A stretch of DNA of 45,171 nucleotides, from positions 1 to 45,171 of the forward strand of contig CAYHTV010000003.1 of the NCBI GenBank assembly GCA_964359575.1, given 5' to 3'. The stretch is from an uncultured Planctomycetales bacterium. GTDB lineage: Bacteria; Omnitrophota; Gorgyraeia; Zapsychrales; GWA2-47-8. Every line of letters starts with the position of its first letter. Within the stretch, counting starts at the first letter, position 1. A program made the position numbers and the translations under genes. Below the pieces are notes generated by a model that saw only the letters and a list, made by a program, of their open reading frames with translations, was not told where the DNA came from and searched no databases. Shown here piece after piece: positions 2,825 through 45,171 of this stretch.

Positions 2825-4233
2825 GGATTGCCCTCTGTGCCGCTGAGGTTGTACCGTTTGTCAAGACGGGCGGGCTCGCCGATGTCGCGGGAACGCTGCC
2901 GCTGGCCTTGGAAAAGTTGGGCGAAGAAGTGGTTGTTTTTTTGCCCGGATACAAGAATATTGCAGTGGAAAATGGTAAAAAGAAGAAAGTCGGCGATGGT
3001 ATTTCCACAACCACCATCGGCAGAAATATTCCAGTGTATTTCATTGAGAATGACGAGTTGTACCATCGGAATGGCTTATATGGGGATAGCGGCGGTGATT
3101 ACCCTGATAATTTAGAACGTTTTCAATTTTTCTGCTGGAAGATTTTAAAAGTTTTAAAGCAGTTGAAAATTCCTGTGGATATTGTTCATTGCCATGATTG
3201 GCAGACAGGTTTGCTCCCAGCGTATTTGAAGTCTGTATATCATGCGGACCCATTTTTTCAAAGAACCAAGTCCGTGATGACCATTCATAACCTTGCCTAT
3301 CAAGGAGTATTTCCCAAAGCGGGATTTTCTAAATTAGGATTGGATAAAAAATTATTCTCCGCGGAAGGTTTTGAATTTTATGATCAAATAAATTTTTTAA
3401 AGGGTGGAATTATTTTTAGCGACTCTGTGACGACCGTGAGTCCGCAGTATGCCAAGGAAATTAAAATGGTAAAGTTCGGCTGCGGCCTGGAAGGGGTTTT
3501 GCAGCATCATAAAAGCGATGTTGTGGGGATCCTCAATGGATTGGATTATGCGACATGGAACCCAGAGACCGATCCGCTTATTGCCGAGCAATTTTCCGCG
3601 GAACATATCCACAAAAAATATCGCAATAAACAGAAACTGCAAGAGCAGTCCTCTCTGCCGGTCAAAGAAAGCGTTCCGATTTTTTGTTATGTGGGCCGTT
3701 TAGTCCATCAGAAGGGTTTCGATCTTTTGGCCGATGCGATTGAGGAGTTGATGAAAATGGATTTGCAGTTGGTTATTTTAGGCGTAGGCGAAGAAAAATA
3801 TCATACATTGCTTAATAGACTCATTGTTCAGTATCCAAATAAAATAGCCGGCCATTTAGAATTCAGCGAGTCTATGGCGCATCAGGTTTATGCGGGCTCA
3901 GATTTATTTTTGATGCCGTCTTGGTATGAGCCGTGCGGTTTGAGCCAAATGATTAGCCTGCGCTATGGAGCGATTCCGGTCGCGCATAAAACAGGCGGAT
4001 TAGCCGATACGATTGTCCCTTTTGATTTTTCTAAACGGCAGGGAAACGGATTTCTTTTTGAGGACTACCTCGTGGAAGATTTAGTGGCGGCGGTAAAAAA
4101 CGCGGTGAGTGTTTATCACGATAAAGACATTTTTCATCAGCTTATCACCAATGCCATGAAGCTGCGCTTTGCGTGGGATGATTCTGCCAAACAATATCAA
4201 AAGGTTTTTAAGCGATGCTTAGCGTTGGGATAA
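2821..4233 (+). CDS. glgA: Glycogen synthase
   Basis: KTGGLADV ADP-glucose motif, HCHDWQTG, TIHNLAYQG, EPCGLSQ. Confidence 0.96.
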   Translation: MRIALCAAEVVPFVKTGGLADVAGTLPLALEKLGEEVVVFLPGYKNIAVENGKKKKVGDGISTTTIGRNIPVYFIENDELYHRNGLYGDSGGDYPDNLERFQFFCWKILKVLKQLKIPVDIVHCHDWQTGLLPAYLKSVYHADPFFQRTKSVMTIHNLAYQGVFPKAGFSKLGLDKKLFSAEGFEFYDQINFLKGGIIFSDSVTTVSPQYAKEIKMVKFGCGLEGVLQHHKSDVVGILNGLDYATWNPETDPLIAEQFSAEHIHKKYRNKQKLQEQSSLPVKESVPIFCYVGRLVHQKGFDLLADAIEELMKMDLQLVILGVGEEKYHTLLNRLIVQYPNKIAGHLEFSESMAHQVYAGSDLFLMPSWYEPCGLSQMISLRYGAIPVAHKTGGLADTIVPFDFSKRQGNGFLFEDYLVEDLVAAVKNAVSVYHDKDIFHQLITNAMKLRFAWDDSAKQYQKVFKRCLALG

Positions 4234-6220: not shown

Positions 6221-6255
6221 CTTATAATTTATCCTCTATTAATTGAGGATTCTCT

Positions 6256-6358
6256 TATTGACCTTTGTAGAACCAAAAGAATTGAGGTAGTCAATATTGG
6301 CCTTTGTCTCCTCAATGATAAATCCAAATTTTTTTCTTTAGTTGTACAAAGGCCCATA
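6256..6358 (+). mobile_element. Element A, 103-bp MITE-like repeat (length includes both flanking TA)
   Basis: Imperfect terminal inverted repeats tattgacctttgtagaacc / agttgtacaaaggcccata; near-identical copies elsewhere in the window. Confidence 0.85.
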
Positions 6359-6376
6359 AGATGACAAGGAGTCAAA

Positions 6377-9741: not shown

Positions 9742-9805
9742 AACTCAAAAATCAAAACTCAAAAGTTAAAGCTGAAGTTTAGTTTTGAGTTTTGATTTTT
9801 AAGTT
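9742..9805. repeat. Periodic (about 7-nt) AT-rich inverted repeat, family C
   Basis: 23-bp arms aactcaaaaatcaaaactcaaaa / ttttgagttttgatttttaagtt with 1 mismatch. Confidence 0.8.
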
Positions 9806-12800: not shown

Positions 12801-12810
12801 TTTATCCCGT

Positions 12811-12913
12811 TATTGACCTTTGTAGAACCAAAAGAATTGAGGTAGTCAATATTGGCCTTTGTCTCCTCAATGATAAATCCAAATTTTTTTCTTTAGTTGT
12901 ACAAAGGCCCATA
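12811..12913 (+). mobile_element. Element A copy
   Basis: Matches the 6256-6358 copy; TA at both ends; 10 nt after the trpF stop. Confidence 0.85.
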
Positions 12914-12987
12914 GAGAGCGCAGTTTTCTAACAGGATTTATAGCTTGGCTAAGCGCGTTATAGGCCATTAGCGTGAAGGAGGGACCT

Positions 12988-13444: not shown

Positions 13445-13537
13445 CAGCATAGGAAAGTATAAAACTTTCCTAGCTGCTAAAAAATCCTCTTCTATGCAGC
13501 AAAGAAGTTGCGACGAACGAAGTGAGGAGTTTTCTTG
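13445..13537 (+). mobile_element. Element B, 93-bp structured repeat
   Basis: cagcataggaaagtataaaactttcctagctg...gaggagttttcttg; 3 substitutions relative to the 15082 and 26578 copies. Confidence 0.8.
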
Positions 13538-13541
13538 AGTT

Positions 13542-14027
13542 ATGCCGATGGGAAACATGAAAAATAATCCAGAAAAGCGTAAATATGCGCGGTATGGTTC
13601 TAAAATGCCGATCATCTGCCGGGTCATTTATGATTTTAAAACGCAGATCAAATATCAGATTGTCGTGGATGGCCAGGAAAGAATTTTATCCGAAAAATAC
13701 GACGGGGTTAGCAAAGATGTCAGTGTGGAGGGTTTTAGTTTTTTTTCATCGCAGCGGCTCAGTAAAGGAGATGTTATCCGCATTGAGGTGTATGTCCCTA
13801 CCCAAAAAAATCCGGTGCATCTGGATGGCGAGGTGCGCTGGTCGCATCCCATGGCGGGCTTTGGTATGAGGGACCAGTATGAAACCGGTGTGCATGTCCT
13901 TAAGGTTAACGGCAAGTTGGTCGTGGATACGGTTCGGTTTGATAAGGTGCGGGGCATGCATTGGAGTGAGGTGCTGGATGCTGTTTTAAAACACTTTCTC
14001 GATCAGGATAAAGAGGATAAAGGGTAA
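13542..14027 (+). CDS. PilZ-domain protein (c-di-GMP receptor); start may be 13557
   Basis: RKYAR (RxxxR) and DVSVEG (DxSxxG) motifs, GEVRW. Confidence 0.8.
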   Translation: MPMGNMKNNPEKRKYARYGSKMPIICRVIYDFKTQIKYQIVVDGQERILSEKYDGVSKDVSVEGFSFFSSQRLSKGDVIRIEVYVPTQKNPVHLDGEVRWSHPMAGFGMRDQYETGVHVLKVNGKLVVDTVRFDKVRGMHWSEVLDAVLKHFLDQDKEDKG

Positions 14028-14176: not shown

Positions 14177-14818
14177 ATGGAAAATCTGACACTGGTCATT
14201 GGCAATAAAAATTATTCTTCCTGGTCAATGCGGCCGTGGGTTTTGCTGAAACATTTTAAAATTCCTTTTGATGAAGTTTTCATTCCCTTAGGGATGCCGG
14301 AAAGCAAACAAAATATTCTAAAGCATTCTCCTTCGGGCAAAGTCCCGGTCATTAAACATGGCAGGCTTATGGTTTGGGAAAGCCTCGCGATTGCCGAATA
14401 TCTGGCGGAAATTTTTCCGAAGAAAAATTTGTGGCCGAAGGATAAACCAGCGAGGGCCGTGGCCCGGGCGGTGAGCTCAGAGATGCACGCGGGATTCATC
14501 CATCTGCGTAAGGCCTGCCCGATGAATGTCAGAGCCCATAAACCTCTGGCAGAATTAACCCCTGAGATGCAAAAGGATACGGCGCGTATCAGTGCCTTAT
14601 GGGGGGATTGCCGTAAGCGTTTTGGCAAAGGCGGGGACTTTTTATTCGGAAAATTTTCCATCGCAGATGCGATGTACGCGCCCGTGATTTGGCGGTTTAA
14701 CACTTATGGGATTTCGGTTTCAGGCGCTGCCAAAAAATATTTTGCAACCATGCTTTATCTGCCCGCCATGCAGGAATGGCAGAAGGCGGCGCAAGAAGAA
14801 CCGCAGGTCATGGATTAA
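14177..14818 (+). CDS. Glutathione S-transferase family protein
   Basis: GNKNYSSWSMRPW, SPSGKVP, WESLAIAEYL, FSIADAMYAP; ATG 14177 after SD aggagg. Confidence 0.92.
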   Translation: MENLTLVIGNKNYSSWSMRPWVLLKHFKIPFDEVFIPLGMPESKQNILKHSPSGKVPVIKHGRLMVWESLAIAEYLAEIFPKKNLWPKDKPARAVARAVSSEMHAGFIHLRKACPMNVRAHKPLAELTPEMQKDTARISALWGDCRKRFGKGGDFLFGKFSIADAMYAPVIWRFNTYGISVSGAAKKYFATMLYLPAMQEWQKAAQEEPQVMD

Positions 14819-14826
14819 TATTGAAA

Positions 14827-14907
14827 AAAACTTAAAATTCAAAACTCAAAAGTCAGAAGGGAATGAATATTTCAGTTTTTACTTTTGAGTTTTGCCCTTT
14901 AACTTTT
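14827..14907. repeat. Periodic AT-rich inverted repeat, family C
   Basis: aaaacttaaaattcaaaactcaaaagt / acttttgagttttgccctttaactttt; ends immediately before ATG 14908. Confidence 0.75.
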
Positions 14908-15846
14908 ATGTCTGCCCAAGAATATTTAGCCCGCATGAAAACGATCCTTTGCGAAGGGGGAAAGGCTGCCCTTGGACTCATTGACAATAGCCGGCCCACG
15001 CTTAAAAAGGACGGCTCCGTGGTGACGCTGGCGGATGAGAAAGTTTCTCAGCTGGCGCACACTATTTTGCAAGATTTTTTACAGCATAGGAAAGTATAAA
15101 ACTTTCCTAGCTGCTAAAAACTCCTCTCCTATGCAGCAAAGAAGTTACGACGAACGAAGTGAGGAGTTTTCTTGAAAACGTCGCAGCATATTCTTATCGA
15201 TGAGGAGGATCCTGCTGGACATCGATATTTGGATCAGGCGATTTTGGAAAAGGTTCCTTTTATTTGGACGATCGATCCGATTGACGGCACCCGCAATTAT
15301 GTGAATCGTATGCCCAATTTTGGCATTTCGGTTGGGCTTATGAGGGATTTAAGGCCTTGGGTTGGGGCGGTGTATTTTCCGGCGCTGAAGGAGTTATTTT
15401 TTTGTGATGGCGTGGAAGCGTACTTTGTGCAAAATGCTTTTACCTTCGATGAGCGGCTGACCAGAATCCGTCCCCTGGACCAGCGGATCACGAACCAATC
15501 GATTTTTTTGTGCATCGACAATTTTGCAAAAAAATTTCAATGGGATTACCAAGATTGTCATTTGATGACGCAGGCCTGCGCGGCCGTGGACTTGTGCTGG
15601 CCGACGATTGGACGCGGGTGCGGGGCCTTTTTTAAATCATCGCTGTGGGATTTTGTGGGGCCGTGGCCGATCGTCTTGGCGGCTGGTTTGAATTTTCGTT
15701 CCCTTGCGTCCGGTAAAATATTAGACCGTATCCAAGTGGATTTATTTTTGGAAGAGCACACGCCTTGGAAATTGCGCGAGCCGTATATTCTTTCGTCCGA
15801 GCGTAATTTTTCTATTCTTAAAAGTAAAATTCGGACTCTTTATTGA
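14908..15846 (+). pseudogene. Inositol monophosphatase-family gene interrupted in frame by element B (pieces 14908-15099 and 15172-15846)
   Basis: N part KKDGSVVTLAD; C part LIDEE, WTIDPIDGT, LWD; both in the same frame; removing 15082-15174 gives ...QDFL-KTSQHILIDEE... Confidence 0.8.
15082..15174 (+). mobile_element. Element B copy inside the IMPase gene
   Basis: Identical to the 26578-26670 copy. Confidence 0.85.
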
Positions 15847-15943
15847 CCTTTGTAGAACCAAAAGAATTGAAGTAGTCAATATTGGCCTTTGTCTCCTCAA
15901 TGATAAATTCAAATTTTTTTCTTTAGTTGTACAAAGGCCCATA
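15841..15943 (+). mobile_element. Element A copy inserted in the IMPase stop codon
   Basis: 2 substitutions relative to the 6256 copy; reconstructed empty site reads act ctt TAA. Confidence 0.85.
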
Positions 15944-16054
15944 AGTAGGATCGCTGGCTGGTTTGCCCCTTGACAGATCGTAAAATATCGATTACACATA
16001 TAGAGAATTTTTACAGCAGTTTGAAACCTTTATTTGAAGAAAGGATGGAGTCAC

Positions 16055-16624
16055 GTGAAAAGTAATCATTTTTCAAAAATTTCAAAAATTTTTTTGATTG
16101 TCGTCATTATGATCGCCTGTGACAGATTTGCTGGGGCTAATACTCCGTATCAGAACGCCATTTTGGAAATGCAGCTGCGGGATTTTACGATGTTTCACAA
16201 CGAGTTTCCTAAAGGAATGTGGGACAATAACGCAAATGCCAGGATGTCGGCTGCTGAATTTCGCCAGATGCAGCAGCTTGCACGACAATTGAGTCAGGAA
16301 AATCATAGCCTTCAACAGGCCTTAACCGAGCGGCAAGCGGATCAAGCCAGTATGCTCGATAGCATCAAAAAGGCAGAAGAAGAAAAGCAACAGCTGCAAG
16401 CCGCGCAGCAGAAAATTCAGGATGAATATTCGCAGATGGAATCATCCTTAAGCCAGCAGCTGGCGGAAAATAAACGGTTGCAGGATGAGCTTACCCAAAG
16501 CCAGGAGGGATTTAATCAAAAATTGCTGGATTTTTATAAGGAGGAAGAGATACGCTTAACTCAGCGGATTGAGGAAATTAGGAAAAAACAGGAAGAGTTA
16601 AATAGTGCATCGGGAAATTTGTAG
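16055..16624 (+). CDS. Exported coiled-coil hypothetical protein
   Basis: N-terminal hydrophobic segment, long Q/E/K heptad region; GTG start after ggag. Confidence 0.7.
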   Translation: MKSNHFSKISKIFLIVVIMIACDRFAGANTPYQNAILEMQLRDFTMFHNEFPKGMWDNNANARMSAAEFRQMQQLARQLSQENHSLQQALTERQADQASMLDSIKKAEEEKQQLQAAQQKIQDEYSQMESSLSQQLAENKRLQDELTQSQEGFNQKLLDFYKEEEIRLTQRIEEIRKKQEELNSASGNL

Positions 16625-18797: not shown

Positions 18798-18890
18798 CAG
18801 CATAGGAAAGTATAAAACTTTCCTAGCTGCTAAAAACTCCTCTCCTGTGCAGCAAAGAAGTTACGACGAACGAAGTGAGGAGTTTTCTTG
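18798..18890 (+). mobile_element. Element B copy
   Basis: 1 substitution (cctgtgc for cctatgc) relative to consensus. Confidence 0.85.
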
Positions 18891-21399: not shown

Positions 21400-22149
21400 A
21401 TGCGGGCAAAGTTTTTACGAAAAGTTTTGGGATTTTTATTTTTTCTGCCTGCGGGGATGGGGCAGGTCGCCGTGGCCCAGGATGCCGAAACGATCCCGGC
21501 CATGAATACGCTCGTGCCCGCGTTTGAATCATCTGCGCCAAAACGCGCAGCGGAATTACGGCCGTATAAACGGTATTTTGTTGAGTCGGGAATTGTAGAA
21601 TATATTATCAGCGGGACCCAAAGCGGTATCGAAATTGCTTATTTTGACCGTTGGGGCAGACGCGAGGCCAGATATACAAAGTCCGAAGTCGCCGGGTTGG
21701 GATTCTCGAATACTTTGACTATTATTGACGGCGAATGGATTTACACGATTCATTTGGACAAAAAGATCGGCAGTAAAATCAAAAATGAATTACTCATGAA
21801 AGCCCTTGAGGAATCCAGCCCTGAAGATAAGACTCCGCTGGGTGAGAAAATGATGAGTCTAGTTGGCGGAGAAAAAATTGATAACGAGCGGATTGGTGAG
21901 AAAATGTGTGATATTTGGGAAATCAAGCATCAAGGGCAAAAATTTTGGATATGGAATGGGATCCCGCTTAAAAGCGAGCAAAAGACCGCCTTCGTTGATA
22001 CGACGTTTGCGGCGGTGAGCCTGCAGGCGGGAGCCCTGATCTCCGAAGAAAAATTTAAAATCCCGGAAGATATTAATTTTATTGAAGGCAATATTAATGA
22101 TATGTTGTTGAGTTTATTGACCTTTGTAGAACCGAAAGAATTGAGGTAG
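21400..22149 (+). CDS. Exported hypothetical protein (C-terminus supplied by element A)
   Basis: Signal peptide ...AVAQ; beta-rich body; last 10 residues LTFVEPKELR encoded by element A. Confidence 0.75.
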   Translation: MRAKFLRKVLGFLFFLPAGMGQVAVAQDAETIPAMNTLVPAFESSAPKRAAELRPYKRYFVESGIVEYIISGTQSGIEIAYFDRWGRREARYTKSEVAGLGFSNTLTIIDGEWIYTIHLDKKIGSKIKNELLMKALEESSPEDKTPLGEKMMSLVGGEKIDNERIGEKMCDIWEIKHQGQKFWIWNGIPLKSEQKTAFVDTTFAAVSLQAGALISEEKFKIPEDINFIEGNINDMLLSLLTFVEPKELR

Positions 22150-22217
22150 TCAATATTGGCCTTTGTCTCCTCAATGATAAATTCAAATTTTTTTCTTTAG
22201 TTGTACAAAGGCCCATA
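22115..22217 (+). mobile_element. Element A copy overlapping a CDS 3' end
   Basis: 2 substitutions relative to the 6256 copy; TA at both ends. Confidence 0.85.
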
Positions 22218-22236
22218 AAGAAATGGCCGGCTTTCC

Positions 22237-23932: not shown

Positions 23933-24083
23933 AAGCCGATAAAGGTAAACCCGGGGAAACCCGGGGACACAAAGCCAACAGGCCTACGTTGCCGCAAAAC
24001 CGGGAAGGCTCACAACCCCGTGGGGTGGGCATAAAAGACAAACGGTGGGAATAGGGGCAATAGGGTGGCTGGGTTGCCGAAGT
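23933..24083 (+). ncRNA. Cyclic di-GMP-I (GEMM) riboswitch with enlarged P3
   Basis: aaaggtaaa-cccgg-ggaaac-ccggg-gacacaaagcc...ggcct...ggtggctgggttgccgaa follows the GEMM-I pattern with a GAAA tetraloop; the G20-equivalent position is G. Confidence 0.85.
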
Positions 24084-26577: not shown

Positions 26578-26670
26578 CAGCATAGGAAAGTATAAAACTT
26601 TCCTAGCTGCTAAAAACTCCTCTCCTATGCAGCAAAGAAGTTACGACGAACGAAGTGAGGAGTTTTCTTG
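26578..26670 (+). mobile_element. Element B copy upstream of trpB
   Basis: Identical to the 15082-15174 copy. Confidence 0.85.
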
Positions 26671-35010: not shown

Positions 35011-35025
35011 GCTTTGCATAGATAC

Positions 35026-35128
35026 TATTGACCTTTGTAGAGCCAAAAGAATTGAAGTAGTCAATATTGGCCTTTGTCTCCTCAATGATAAATTCAAATT
35101 TTTTTCTTTAGTTGTACAAAGGCCCATA
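35026..35128 (+). mobile_element. Element A copy
   Basis: 3 substitutions relative to the 6256 copy; TA at both ends. Confidence 0.85.
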
Positions 35129-35129
35129 A

Positions 35130-35173
35130 GAGTTCGAATTTCGAAATTGTTTCGTATTTCGTGATTAAAATTT
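35130..35173. repeat. Half copy of family D repeat before recJ
   Basis: aatttcgaaattgtttcg is the reverse complement of a segment in 26488-26572. Confidence 0.6.
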
Positions 35174-40823: not shown

Positions 40824-40902
40824 AACTTAAAAGTTAAAGGTCAAAACTTAAAATGAGAGAGCGTATATTAGTTTTGACTTTTTAGTTTTGAATTTTAACT
40901 TT
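40824..40902. repeat. Periodic AT-rich inverted repeat, family C, upstream of rpmB
   Basis: aacttaaaagttaaaggtcaaaact...agttttgactttttagttttgaattttaactt. Confidence 0.7.
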
Positions 40903-40972
40903 CTTTAGTTTGCTATTTAATGAAGTATGAGTATAATGGAAAAAGATATTTTGTCAATTATTTTTTGTCCAG

Positions 40973-45054: not shown

Positions 45055-45120
45055 AATAGGTTTTTATTAATGCGCACAAGTGCTTGCAGTACAAATGGTT
45101 ATGATTTGTTTAAGTTTGCT

Positions 45121-45171
45121 TATTGACCTTTGTAGAACCAAAAGAATTGAGGTAGTCAATATTGGCCTTTG
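45121..45171 (+). mobile_element. Element A, left 51 nt, truncated by window end
   Basis: Identical to the first 51 nt of the 6256 copy. Confidence 0.9.

What the first reader, a model, noticed from the sequence alone, without database searches (positions are those of the whole stretch)
14908..15846. IMPase gene split in frame by a 93-bp element that supplies its own stop and a possible RBS-TTG restart
Seen: element B (15082-15174, exactly 31 codons) lies between the IMPase-family motifs VVTLAD and LIDEE. Precise removal restores one continuous frame (QDFL-KTSQHILIDEE). The insert carries in-frame stops, the first TAA at 15097, and ends in GAGGAG-ttttc-TTG, a Shine-Dalgarno sequence plus a TTG in frame with the C-terminal half. 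Both halves are otherwise intact. At 18888 the same TTG is also in frame with the downstream gene; at the other two copies it is not. Inference: this is a fresh knockout, a split two-peptide enzyme, or an element removed precisely at DNA or RNA level (intron-like or reversible switch).
Basis: partly seen in the sequence, partly recalled or inferred. Interest (0 to 1): 0.8.

Follow-up and report, generated by a model that had tools for sequence, protein, structure and literature searches.

The report
Small mobile element splits a phosphatase gene
A 93-base jumping element, present about 60 times in this small groundwater bacterial genome, has recently landed inside an inositol-phosphatase-type gene and cut it into two reading frames, which is most likely a fresh gene knockout.

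Summary
At 15082-15174 an exact 93-nt repeat interrupts an IMPase-family gene after codon 58. 22 orthologues in related genomes are uninterrupted, and the two halves abut without gap or overlap.

The insert is one of about 60 copies of a non-autonomous mobile element in this 1.97-Mb Omnitrophota MAG.
- It inserts right after TTTTTNA, with no target duplication and no terminal inverted repeats. An exact empty site confirms this.
- It folds into helices supported by covariation.
- Relatives occur in 14 of 121 genomes of the order.
- One sense frame is open. Copies in that phase are read through as a 31-residue insert, much like Rickettsia palindromic elements.
- In the IMPase phase the sixth codon is TAA. 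A PP-loop ATPase gene is split the same way.

Both phase-0 copies match the family consensus, so they are young. I saw no excised allele, though the data are weak.

Best reading: a recent insertional disruption. Restart at the element's own GAGGAG-N5-TTG and seamless excision stay possible. The mobilising enzyme is unidentified.

The parts
14908..15081 (+). N-terminal 58 codons of the IMPase-family gene (MSAQEY...ILQDFL)
   Evidence: ORF list. Aligns to residues 1-58 of eight orthologues. 74% identical to the same-genus orthologue.
15075..15081 (+). Target motif TTTTTTA, part of the gene (codons D-F-L), immediately 5' of the insert
   Evidence: Left flanks of 58 copies: T at -7..-3 in 51-57 of 58, and A at -1 in 51 of 58. 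The same motif class is present in three uninterrupted paralogous sites.
15082..15174 (+). Element B: 93-nt non-autonomous mobile element, 100% identical to the family consensus
   Evidence: Exact empty-site comparison with no target duplication.
15082..15114 (+). Hairpin 1 of element B (element nt 1-33). Nt 1-13 can pair instead with nt 43-55 (15124-15136).
   Evidence: DNA and RNA folds. Pair counts: hairpin 1 is 80.5% paired and the long-range helix 89.5% paired, with three pair types at one position.
15097..15099 (+). TAA, sixth codon of the element in codon phase 0; it ends the N-terminal reading frame (...QDFL-QHRKV*)
15117..15170 (+). Helix 2 of element B: AAAACTCCTC (15117-15126) pairs with GAGGAGTTTT (15161-15170), so it contains the Shine-Dalgarno-like GAGGAG (15161-15166)
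   Evidence: Folds. 96.9% of cells paired, with CG 11 and UA 11 at one pair.
15172..15174 (+). TTG, the last three bases of the element; in frame with the C-terminal part and 5 nt after GAGGAG
   Evidence: A spacing of 5 is within the range seen at this genome's SD-like starts (a crude census).
15175..15846 (+). C-terminal 223 codons plus stop of the IMPase-family gene (KTSQHILIDEE...DPIDGT...WDFVG...)
   Evidence: Pfam Inositol_P E 3.6e-20. 80-81% identical to the same-genus orthologue. The 224-aa TTG-started product is on record from 3 contigs.
15840..15947 (+). Element A, a second unrelated repeat that abuts the gene and supplies its last codon and TGA stop
   Evidence: Repeat families D1, D3 and D4. 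74 near-full copies in the genome. The alignment to the orthologue diverges here.
13445..13537 (+). Element B copy, 4 nt upstream of the ATG of a PilZ-domain gene
18798..18890 (+). Element B copy in an intergenic leader; the downstream gene keeps its own AGGAGG-ATG
26578..26670 (+). Element B copy in an intergenic leader; the downstream gene keeps its own GGAGGGG-ATG

Best explanation
The IMPase-family gene (14908-15846) was hit recently by a transposition of element B, a 93-nt non-autonomous, structured mobile element.

Shown:
- B has about 60 copies in this genome.
- It has no terminal inverted repeats.
- It inserts exactly 3' of TTTTTNA without duplicating the target.
- It lies almost always in the sense orientation of nearby genes.
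- It has one open sense frame.
- In codon phase 2 it is read through as a 31-residue hydrophilic insert, which is tolerated in linkers and tails.
- In codon phase 0, as here, its sixth codon is TAA, so the IMPase frame ends after 58 native and 5 element-encoded residues.

Inferred: the gene is now dead or crippled, a pseudogene too young to show decay. The 224-aa C-terminal piece keeps the LIDEE, DPIDGT and WD motifs. It could still be made from the element's GAGGAG-N5-TTG, but nothing shows that it is.

The transposition chemistry is also inferred. The anatomy points to single-strand HUH/Y1-type (IS200/IS605- or RAYT-like) mobilisation in trans. The enzyme is not identified.
For: Insertion and exactness:
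- Orthologues are uninterrupted.
- An exact empty site in three paralogous repeats shows a 93-nt gain with no duplication or loss.

Mobile family:
- 27 near-full copies, 16 of them 100% identical.
- 35 paired ends of 93-433 nt, plus 23 orphan left ends and 27 orphan right ends, most of them at contig tips.
- The target motif is TTTTTNA.
- The family occurs in 14 of 121 genomes of the order, with the same target and ends.

Youth:
- The IMPase copy and the other phase-0 copy (contig C76) are both 100% consensus.
- Read-through copies include diverged ones, at 96.8%, 98.9% and 88.6%.

Phase pattern:
- In G000 the clear intragenic copies are phase 2 read-through in three cases (C1 in the Memo-AMMECR1 linker, C33, C93) and phase 0 in two (IMPase, PP-loop ATPase). 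None is antisense or phase 1.
- In other genomes 3 of the 26 fetched copies lie in long ORFs. All three are phase 2 read-through, and none is a phase-0 split.

The gene is dispensable in relatives: no match in 15 of 41 relatives, including 3 of 4 genomes of the same family.

The insertion looks stable:
- The left junction is present in a 1006-nt contig of run X1.
- The TTG-started 224-aa product is recorded from 3 contigs.
- No near-identical full-length allele exists in 5.8 billion clustered proteins; the next best is 80% identical.
Against: - Two conserved genes are split, both in the one stop-bearing class that also offers an in-frame restart. Of coding TTTTTNA sites, phase 0 sense is 492, against 1091 for phase 1 and 3734 for antisense. 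Two of two stop-introducing insertions in phase 0 has chance about 0.01 without strand bias and about 0.05-0.1 with the strand bias seen in intergenic copies (my arithmetic; n = 2).
- The PP-loop ATPase is 84-90% identical across families, so it looks important.
- No intact paralogue of either gene was found in the 91%-complete assembly.
- The split in IMPase falls at a helix-to-strand loop, a place where a two-piece protein could reassemble.
- The SD spacing is plausible for this genome.
- No expression or raw-read data could be examined.
Confidence: 0.55

Rival explanations
1. Functional split gene. Translation ends at the element's TAA and starts again at its own GAGGAG-N5-TTG. The 63-residue N-piece and the 224-residue C-piece then assemble into an active enzyme. 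On this view, stop plus restart in phase 0 is a damage-limiting property of the element, alongside read-through in phase 2.
For: - The SD-like GAGGAG lies 5 nt before an in-frame TTG. In a crude census of SD-preceded starts, TTG is used at 48 of 419, and a spacing of 5 occurs 56 times.
- A second gene, a PP-loop ATPase on C76, is split in the same phase at the same local sequence, GATTTTTTA|AA. Both of its halves are intact and match Pfam positions 1-65 and 84-162. Its orthologues are single frames of about 254 aa.
- No antisense or phase-1 intragenic copy exists, although those classes hold 4825 of the 6652 coding target motifs.
- The IMPase split site is a loop between helix 55-58 and strand 63-67 in a model with pLDDT 86.
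- The C-piece keeps the LIDEE, DPIDGT and WD motifs.
Against: - There are only two cases, and both copies are identical to the consensus, so selection has had no time to act.
- No phase-0 split was seen among 26 copies in other genomes.
- The GAGGAG is the 3' arm of a conserved helix and would be sequestered in RNA.
- A 68-nt short form of the family has the same ends but no SD-like helix, so the SD is not a family-wide feature.
- An in-frame TTG is automatic in phase 0.
- The TAA lies 72 nt upstream of the TTG, so termination-coupled restart is unlikely (inference).
Confidence: 0.25
2. Reversible insertion. Because the element makes no target duplication, its transposase can excise it seamlessly, as IS200/IS605 elements do when they form a donor joint. 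The gene would then switch between off and on within the population.
For: - Insertion is exact, with no duplication or deletion, so excision would restore the frame.
- The IS200/IS605 mechanism reseals the donor backbone. Passages of PMC3597680 were read.
- Two Y1/HUH transposase-like genes are present in the genome.
Against: - No contig in four runs joins 15081 to 15175. These are contigs, which drop rare variants.
- No near-identical uninterrupted allele exists among public proteins, and the split product is seen on 3 contigs.
- Neither Y1 gene has B-like ends. Each has its own different flanking palindromes.
- No autonomous B was found here or in the 14 extra loci fetched from relatives.
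Confidence: 0.12
3. RNA-level removal. The 93 nt would be spliced out of the mRNA like an intron, leaving the protein whole.
For: The length is a multiple of three. The element has conserved secondary structure supported by covariation.
Against: - No Rfam family matches the element at gathering score, or at E up to 5.
- 93 nt is far below the size of self-splicing introns (established knowledge).
- Copies in phase 2 keep an open frame and appear inside predicted proteins in several organisms. Removal of the RNA would make that unnecessary.
- Most copies are intergenic.
Confidence: 0.02
4. Assembly artefact. The repeat was placed inside the gene by mis-joining of metagenomic contigs.
For: The genome is a 152-contig MAG. 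Many contigs end inside this repeat.
Against: - Both flanks are the two halves of one gene, in order, orientation and frame.
- An independent 1006-nt Logan contig in run X1 runs from 14500 to 21 nt inside the element with no mismatch.
- The TTG-started product is recorded on 3 contigs.
Confidence: 0.02

Closest known systems
Rickettsia palindromic elements (RPEs)
   Same: Both are small, structured, high-copy repeats that sit inside protein-coding genes in frame and are translated as a conserved peptide. Passages of the review PMC10969869 were read. Here the peptide S[IV]GKYKTFL[AT]AKNS[SF]P..QQR..D[ED]R.EEFS is read through in at least three G000 genes and in proteins of other organisms.
   Different: - There is no sequence relation, and the phylum is different (Omnitrophota).
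- B is 93 nt, against about 150 bp for RPEs.
- Most B copies are intergenic.
- The IMPase copy is not in the open phase, so it stops translation.
- B shows a defined target (TTTTTNA) and exact insertion without duplication. I did not check these features for RPEs.
IS200/IS605 family and its ORF-less derivatives (palindrome-associated transposable elements, PATEs)
   Same: Both lack terminal inverted repeats and make no target duplication. Both insert 3' of a short specific sequence and have structured ends. Seamless excision is possible. Family features come from passages of PMC3597680. For B.
   Different: - The target is a 7-nt T-rich motif rather than a tetra- or pentanucleotide.
- The left hairpin starts at element nt 1, with no linker.
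- The right 'hairpin' is a 10-bp helix that closes a 34-nt loop.
- No cognate TnpA with matching ends and no TnpB was found.

Membership is therefore not established.
REP/REPIN elements mobilised by RAYT (REP-associated tyrosine transposases)
   Same: Both are short palindrome-bearing repeats dispersed in intergenic regions. Two RAYT-like genes are present; their best NCBIfam match is NF047646, at 71 and 65 bits, below the cut-off of 80.
   Different: Each RAYT-like gene is flanked by its own, different palindromes, not by B. B is not an inverted doublet of REPs. RAYT-like genes occur in 87 of 121 genomes of the order, against 14 of 121 for B, so there is no co-occurrence signal.
Classical bacterial MITEs (Correia, ERIC, RUP, BOX and the like)
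   Same: All are non-autonomous, about 100 nt, high in copy number, often in 5' leaders, and sometimes carry ORFs or expression signals (review PMC10969869, passages).
   Different: Those elements are defined by terminal inverted repeats and target-site duplications. B has neither.

Membership tests
Inositol monophosphatase family (host gene) | Match to Pfam PF00459 above the gathering score | tested here: met
   The C-terminal part scores 73 bits against a cut-off of 27, E 3.6e-20. The 58-aa N-terminal part alone gives no hit.
Inositol monophosphatase family (host gene) | Conserved metal-binding motifs (the EE of LIDEE, DPIDGT, WD..AG). The roles of these residues are recalled from human IMPase. 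| tested here: met
   The motifs are present in the C-terminal part and nearly invariant in the orthologue alignment. They align to human IMPase 7vce. Residue roles are recalled and were not tested.
IS200/IS605-derived non-autonomous element (PATE) | No terminal inverted repeats | tested here: met
   The ends are CAGCATAGG... and ...TTTTCTTG. The alignment of copies with flanks shows no inverted termini.
IS200/IS605-derived non-autonomous element (PATE) | No target-site duplication; exact insertion | tested here: met
   Three uninterrupted paralogous sites read ..aattcttca|caaaggg.. The filled site has exactly the 93 nt between them.
IS200/IS605-derived non-autonomous element (PATE) | Insertion 3' of a specific short sequence | tested here: met
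   TTTTTNA lies immediately 5' of the element in 58 copies and in copies from ten other genomes. At 7 nt it is longer than the family's usual 4-5 nt.
IS200/IS605-derived non-autonomous element (PATE) | Sub-terminal imperfect palindromes at both ends, recognised by TnpA | tested here: inconclusive
   Structure is present and supported by covariation. However, the left hairpin is terminal, the right helix closes a 34-nt loop, and the two do not resemble each other.
IS200/IS605-derived non-autonomous element (PATE) | A cognate Y1 transposase whose own element shares the ends | tested here: not met
   The two Y1_Tnp genes have other flanking palindromes. No TnpB was found. No autonomous copy was found in the loci fetched from relatives. 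The MAG is 91% complete, so absence is not shown.
IS200/IS605-derived non-autonomous element (PATE) | Orientation bias relative to replication (lagging-strand template) | tested here: inconclusive
   Copies are co-oriented with tandem genes 17 to 3, and 5 to 0 inside genes. But genes themselves are almost all co-oriented (1351 tandem against 121 other junctions), so replication and gene effects cannot be separated on short contigs.
Classical MITE | Terminal inverted repeats plus target-site duplication | tested here: not met
REPIN/RAYT system | The repeats flank the RAYT gene and occur as inverted doublets | tested here: not met
   The flanks of both RAYT-like genes carry other palindromes. 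B is a single asymmetric unit.
RPE-like coding repeat (works like) | In-frame, stop-free insertion in host ORFs that encodes a conserved peptide | tested here: met
   Met for the family: C1, C33 and C93 in G000, L017, L018 and L023 in relatives, and P0005 and P0006 in public proteins. Not met for the IMPase copy itself, which is in the stop phase.
Self-splicing intron or other curated RNA family | Match to an Rfam covariance model | tested here: not met
   No match for the element at gathering score over the whole window, nor at E up to 5 over 14700-16100.

The most novel reading that the evidence does not exclude
Element B may be a 'gene-compatible' transposon whose sequence has been shaped so that landing inside genes is often survivable.

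- In one codon phase it would be translated as a flexible 31-residue linker.
- In a second phase it would act as a stop-and-restart cassette, using its own Shine-Dalgarno sequence and TTG, which turns the host into a working two-piece protein.
- Because it inserts without target duplication through an as yet unidentified, probably HUH-type enzyme acting in trans, it could also leave without a scar.

On this reading the IMPase and PP-loop ATPase genes of this organism are live, split and potentially switchable genes, and not pseudogenes.
Probability: 0.15. Interest if true: 0.7.

Novelty: new member of a known kind. Interest (0 to 1): 0.4.

Why it matters
For the gene itself, the result is an ordinary, recent transposon hit.

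The family behind it is more interesting. It is an apparently undescribed, structured 93-nt element. It is spread over several families of Omnitrophota at 75-95% nucleotide identity. Its target is strict and it makes no duplication. One of its frames is open and is really found inside proteins. This extends the RPE phenomenon ('selfish DNA inside protein-coding genes') to an uncultivated groundwater phylum.

It also gives annotators a concrete rule: a 31-residue S[IV]GKYK...EEFS insert, or a gene split at TTTTTNA|CAGC...CTTG, marks this element. No paper in the held library contains both 'Omnitroph...' and 'miniature inverted'.

If the restart or excision readings proved true, the element would be a natural stop-restart or reversible gene-splitting cassette.

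Tried and rejected
- Sequencing runs. The look-up of sequencing runs listed 11 DNA holders, all kept as Logan contigs, and no RNA holder. Expression could therefore not be examined.
- Read laying on X1, X4, X8 and X9. No contig joins 15081 to 15175. X1 covers 14500-15102 and 15406-15866. X4, X8 and X9 do not cover the junctions. The two joints listed (15177 to 15841 and 15178 to 15877) have short sides of 24-27 nt and link repeat edges, so I did not use them. Holes in contig cover prove nothing.
- Search for the mobilising enzyme.
  - Y1_Tnp gave two RAYT-like genes, each with its own flanking palindromes.
  - TnpB models gave nothing.
  - An IS110-type match is a relic with an internal TGA and no ORF of at least 60 aa.
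  - One DDE_Tnp_1 gene on C52 was not followed up.
  - Homologues of the C79 RAYT-like protein occur in 87 of 121 genomes, so they show no association with B.
  - Loci around left-only or right-only matches in relatives were only further ORF-less variants.
  - The multi-copy Y1 genes of G071 have no B-like ends.
- Peptide searches. The word-index search found 3 proteins. The full HMMER search of 1.84 billion representatives found 4 at E up to 0.001, one of them (P0007) a spurious eukaryote-like repeat protein. A 30-residue query and 50% clustering make this a floor and not a census.
- Promoter scan. No sigma-70-like site in 14700-16100.
- Open frame in relatives. 13 of the 15 copies of exactly 93 nt are open in phase 2. 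These copies are related by descent, and 11 of the 26 fetched copies have lengths that are not multiples of three, so I make no claim of selection for coding in intergenic copies.
- Orientation of element A. 38 co-oriented against 21 anti. This is less biased than B, but the difference is not significant.
- Complex prediction on the two halves was not run.
- Supplements of papers were not consulted.
Full report
What is there

The window is one whole contig (C3) of a 152-contig, 1.97-Mb, 44.6% G+C assembly. The same-genus orthologue of the gene lies on a record titled as an Omnitrophica WOR_2 MAG. The runs that hold the stretch are groundwater metagenomes.

From ATG 14908 a frame encodes MSAQEY...VVTLADEKVSQLAHTILQDFL. 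It then runs into a 93-nt repeat at 15082 and stops at TAA 15097-15099. A TTG at 15172-15174, the last three bases of the repeat, opens a 224-codon frame to 15846. That frame matches Pfam Inositol_P over profile positions 62-236.

Is the gene really interrupted?

Yes. A search of 41 related genomes with the C-terminal part found 22 other genomes with strong matches, each in a single open frame of 285-354 aa with no internal stop. In an alignment with eight of them, the two window pieces meet at columns 60|61 with no residue lost or gained, and no orthologue has an insert there.

At DNA level the same-genus gene reads GACCTTTTG-AAAACG where the window reads GATTTTTTA-[93 nt]-AAAACG.

An AlphaFold model of the same-genus orthologue (pLDDT 86) places the break between a short helix (55-58) and the strand that carries LIDEE (63-67). 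The site aligns to the variable 'KE--KYPSH' stretch of human IMPase.

What the insert is

The 93-nt string occurs four times in the window.
- Genome-wide there are 27 near-full copies, 16 of them identical to the IMPase copy.
- Matching the two ends separately gives 35 complete elements: 25 of 93 nt, and others of 167-433 nt. It also gives 23 orphan left ends and 27 orphan right ends, most within about 50 nt of a contig tip. The element breaks the assembly, and the true number is about 60.
- The longer forms carry extra internal modules. These modules occur only inside B.

The element has no terminal inverted repeats. The seven bases to its left are TTTTTNA in nearly all copies: T in 51-57 of 58 at positions -7 to -3, and A in 51 of 58 at -1.

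One copy (C42:8671-8763) lies inside another repeat that has three uninterrupted paralogues. They read ..aattcttca|caaaggg.., and the filled site has exactly the 93 nt between those bases. Insertion is therefore exact, without target duplication or deletion, and precise removal would restore the host sequence.

Structure and spread

As DNA or RNA the element folds into a 5' hairpin (nt 1-33) and a helix that pairs AAAACTCCTC with GAGGAGTTTT.

Relatives at 75-95% identity occur in 14 of 121 sampled genomes of the order, in several families. I fetched 26 copies from ten other genomes. They show the same left-flank motif and the same ..TTTTCTTG end.

On an alignment of 26 sequences:
- Hairpin 1 plus helix 2 is 87.6% paired, with 25 double-change cells against 8.9 in shuffles. 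One pair is CG in 11 sequences and UA in 11.
- An alternative long-range pairing of nt 1-13 with nt 43-55 is 89.5% paired, with GC, AU and UA at one position. It survives in variants that have lost hairpin 1.

Related sequences can beat shuffles without any structure. Here the slid controls are also much lower, at 37-57% paired.

A 68-nt short form in two genomes keeps hairpin 1, an AAAA...TTTT-based helix, the CTTG end and the TTTTTTA target, but has no SD-like sequence.

Rfam has no match.

In sense orientation, codon phase 2 is open through the whole element ([30 protein letters not shown]). Phase 0 stops at codon 6, and phase 1 stops at codon 3. Reading the reverse complement of the element by eye, all three antisense frames also have stops; no tool call checked this.

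Because the length is 93 nt, every copy preserves the downstream frame.

After removing each of the 36 complete copies in silico, I found these cases:
- Five clear cases where a long ORF spans the site. All five are in sense orientation.
- Three are phase 2 and are read through: C1:55592, C33:16496 in a giant ORF, and C93:7006. C1:55592 lies between the Memo domain (residues 26-290) and the AMMECR1 domain (345-511).
- Two are phase 0: the IMPase gene, and a PP-loop ATPase on C76. The halves of the ATPase match Pfam ATP_bind_3 positions 1-65 and 84-162. Its orthologues are single frames of about 254 aa at 84-90% identity.
- Two more phase-2 copies sit at the very start (C75, a gene I read, without a family search, as an N-acyltransferase-like gene) or near the end (C18) of ORFs. 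One phase-1 copy truncates the last codons of a gene (C100).

In relatives, 3 of the 26 fetched copies lie in long ORFs. All three are phase 2 read-through. Public protein sets hold the peptide inside a 616-aa TPR membrane protein, twice in a 230-aa NYN-domain protein, and in the tail of a nitrilase-family protein.

This is how Rickettsia palindromic elements behave (review PMC10969869, passages).

Where copies sit

- TTTTTNA occurs 3734 times antisense in coding sequence and 2918 times sense (phase 0: 492; phase 1: 1091; phase 2: 1335). It occurs 1001 times between genes (on my own crude gene calls).
- Of the 36 complete copies, the script put 31 between my called genes and 5 inside them. That tally places the IMPase and C76 copies among the 31, because my gene caller splits those genes, and one of the 5 is a doubtful ORF (C102).
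- In tandem intergenic sites the orientation is 17 co-oriented against 3 anti.
- Many copies lie 4-100 nt upstream of a start codon. The downstream gene usually keeps its own SD.
- None of the five clear intragenic copies falls in the antisense or phase-1 classes, which hold 73% of the coding targets. This suggests either purifying selection or a mechanistic strand bias. Genes here are almost all co-oriented (1351 tandem junctions against 121 others), so the two cannot be separated.

Knockout, split enzyme or switch?

For a recent knockout:
- Both phase-0 copies are identical to the consensus, while read-through copies include diverged ones.
- No phase-0 split was seen in other genomes.
- The IMPase gene was not found in 15 of 41 relatives, including three of four genomes of the same family.

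For a working split:
- Two of two stop-introducing insertions are in the only class that offers an in-frame SD-TTG. The chance is about 0.01 with no strand bias and about 0.05-0.1 with the observed bias (my arithmetic; n = 2).
- The second gene is highly conserved.
- No intact paralogue of either gene was found.
- The IMPase break is in a loop.
- In a crude census, TTG and a spacing of 5 are both in use.

Against a working split:
- The GAGGAG is half of a conserved helix.
- The TAA lies 72 nt upstream of the TTG.

For a switch:
- Insertion is scarless, and HUH/Y1 transposition reseals the donor (PMC3597680, passages).

Against a switch:
- No contig of four runs joins 15081 to 15175. The left junction is present in X1.
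- The TTG-started 224-aa product is on record from three contigs.
- No near-identical uninterrupted allele exists; the next best is 80% identical.

Contigs and clustered proteins cannot show rare alleles, so this evidence is weak.

How the element moves

This is unknown. The anatomy fits single-strand HUH/Y1 transposition (IS200/IS605 or RAYT type): no inverted repeats, no duplication, a fixed sequence 5' of the insertion point, and structured ends.

However, the defining partner was not found.
- The two Y1-type genes are flanked by their own, different palindromes.
- There is no TnpB.
- The IS110-like match is a relic.
- Searches around partial matches, and around multi-copy Y1 genes in relatives, gave only more ORF-less variants.
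- RAYT-like genes are near-universal in the order, so co-occurrence says nothing.

I therefore say that B works like a PATE-type element, but I do not file it as a member.

Verdict

The insert is a young copy of a mobile element family that I did not find described. The only literature check was one search for 'Omnitroph' together with 'miniature inverted', which found no paper.

My odds for the state of the gene:
- about 0.55 for a fresh insertional disruption;
- about 0.25 for a functional stop-restart split;
- about 0.12 for a reversible insertion;
- small odds for RNA removal or an assembly artefact.

As a gene-level event it is ordinary. The family-level behaviour is worth a note but is of a known kind: RPE-like read-through, a strict target, scarless insertion, and a possible restart cassette.

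Noticed in passing
window 15840-15947 (also 1-57, 6254-6365, 12809-12920, 22113-22224, 35024-35135, 45119-45171): Element A is a second, unrelated repeat of about 105 nt. It has 74 near-full copies and 143 BLAST hits in the genome, and it lies at both ends of this contig. At 15840 it abuts the IMPase gene and supplies its last codon and TGA stop (KIRTLY* against KIRPRE* in the same-genus orthologue). In tandem intergenic sites its orientation is 38 co-oriented against 21 anti.
   Followed up: partly
G000 contig C76:3305-4150 (- strand), element at 3752-3844: A PP-loop ATPase gene (the SGGKDS motif is in the N-half) is split by an identical copy of element B in the same codon phase and at the same local sequence, GATTTTTTA|AA. 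Orthologues are single frames of about 254 aa at 84-90% identity.
   Followed up: yes
G000 contigs C22, C57, C67 (two copies), C110, C102, C1:66736, C53, C134, C81: There are longer forms of element B, of 167-433 nt. They carry internal two-hairpin modules of 74-80 nt at fixed positions. The modules were found only inside B, so the composites seem to spread as units, or the 93-nt form is a deletion derivative.
   Followed up: partly
G000 contig C13:4249-4926 and flanks: A RAYT-like Y1 gene sits inside a run of genes that look, by eye and without a family search, like biotin-synthesis genes. It is bracketed by an inverted pair of a palindrome of about 31 nt (CCATCCTACAC...GTGTAGGATGG). That palindrome has about a dozen further copies in the genome, which is a classic REP/RAYT layout unrelated to element B.
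   Followed up: partly
window 23934-24081 (+): A c-di-GMP-I riboswitch scores 63.8 bits against a gathering score of 35. A PilZ-domain gene lies at 13542-14027.
   Followed up: no
window 14827-14907; also 9742-9805 and 40825-40906: An AT-rich palindrome family (AACTCAAAA...) with arms of about 37 nt. One copy lies directly upstream of the IMPase start codon, between it and the GST-like gene.
   Followed up: no
window 15811-15994 (- strand): A weak Rfam match to the group I intron model lies over element A: 24.5 bits against a gathering score of 50, E 0.001. It is probably chance.
   Followed up: no
whole genome G000: Genes are extremely co-oriented in my crude gene calls: 1351 tandem junctions against 63 convergent and 58 divergent.
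   Followed up: no
L050-L052 (G085, G067), position 301 onward: A 68-nt short relative of element B has the same TTTTTTA target, the same 5' hairpin and the same TTTTCTTG end. Its second helix is different (AAAATCGC/GCGATTTT) and has no SD-like sequence.
   Followed up: partly
L064 (G001:C67), within the PP-loop ATPase orthologue: The stretch that would show the same-genus empty site reads N (withheld), so exactness for that gene rests on a more distant orthologue (G014).
   Followed up: no
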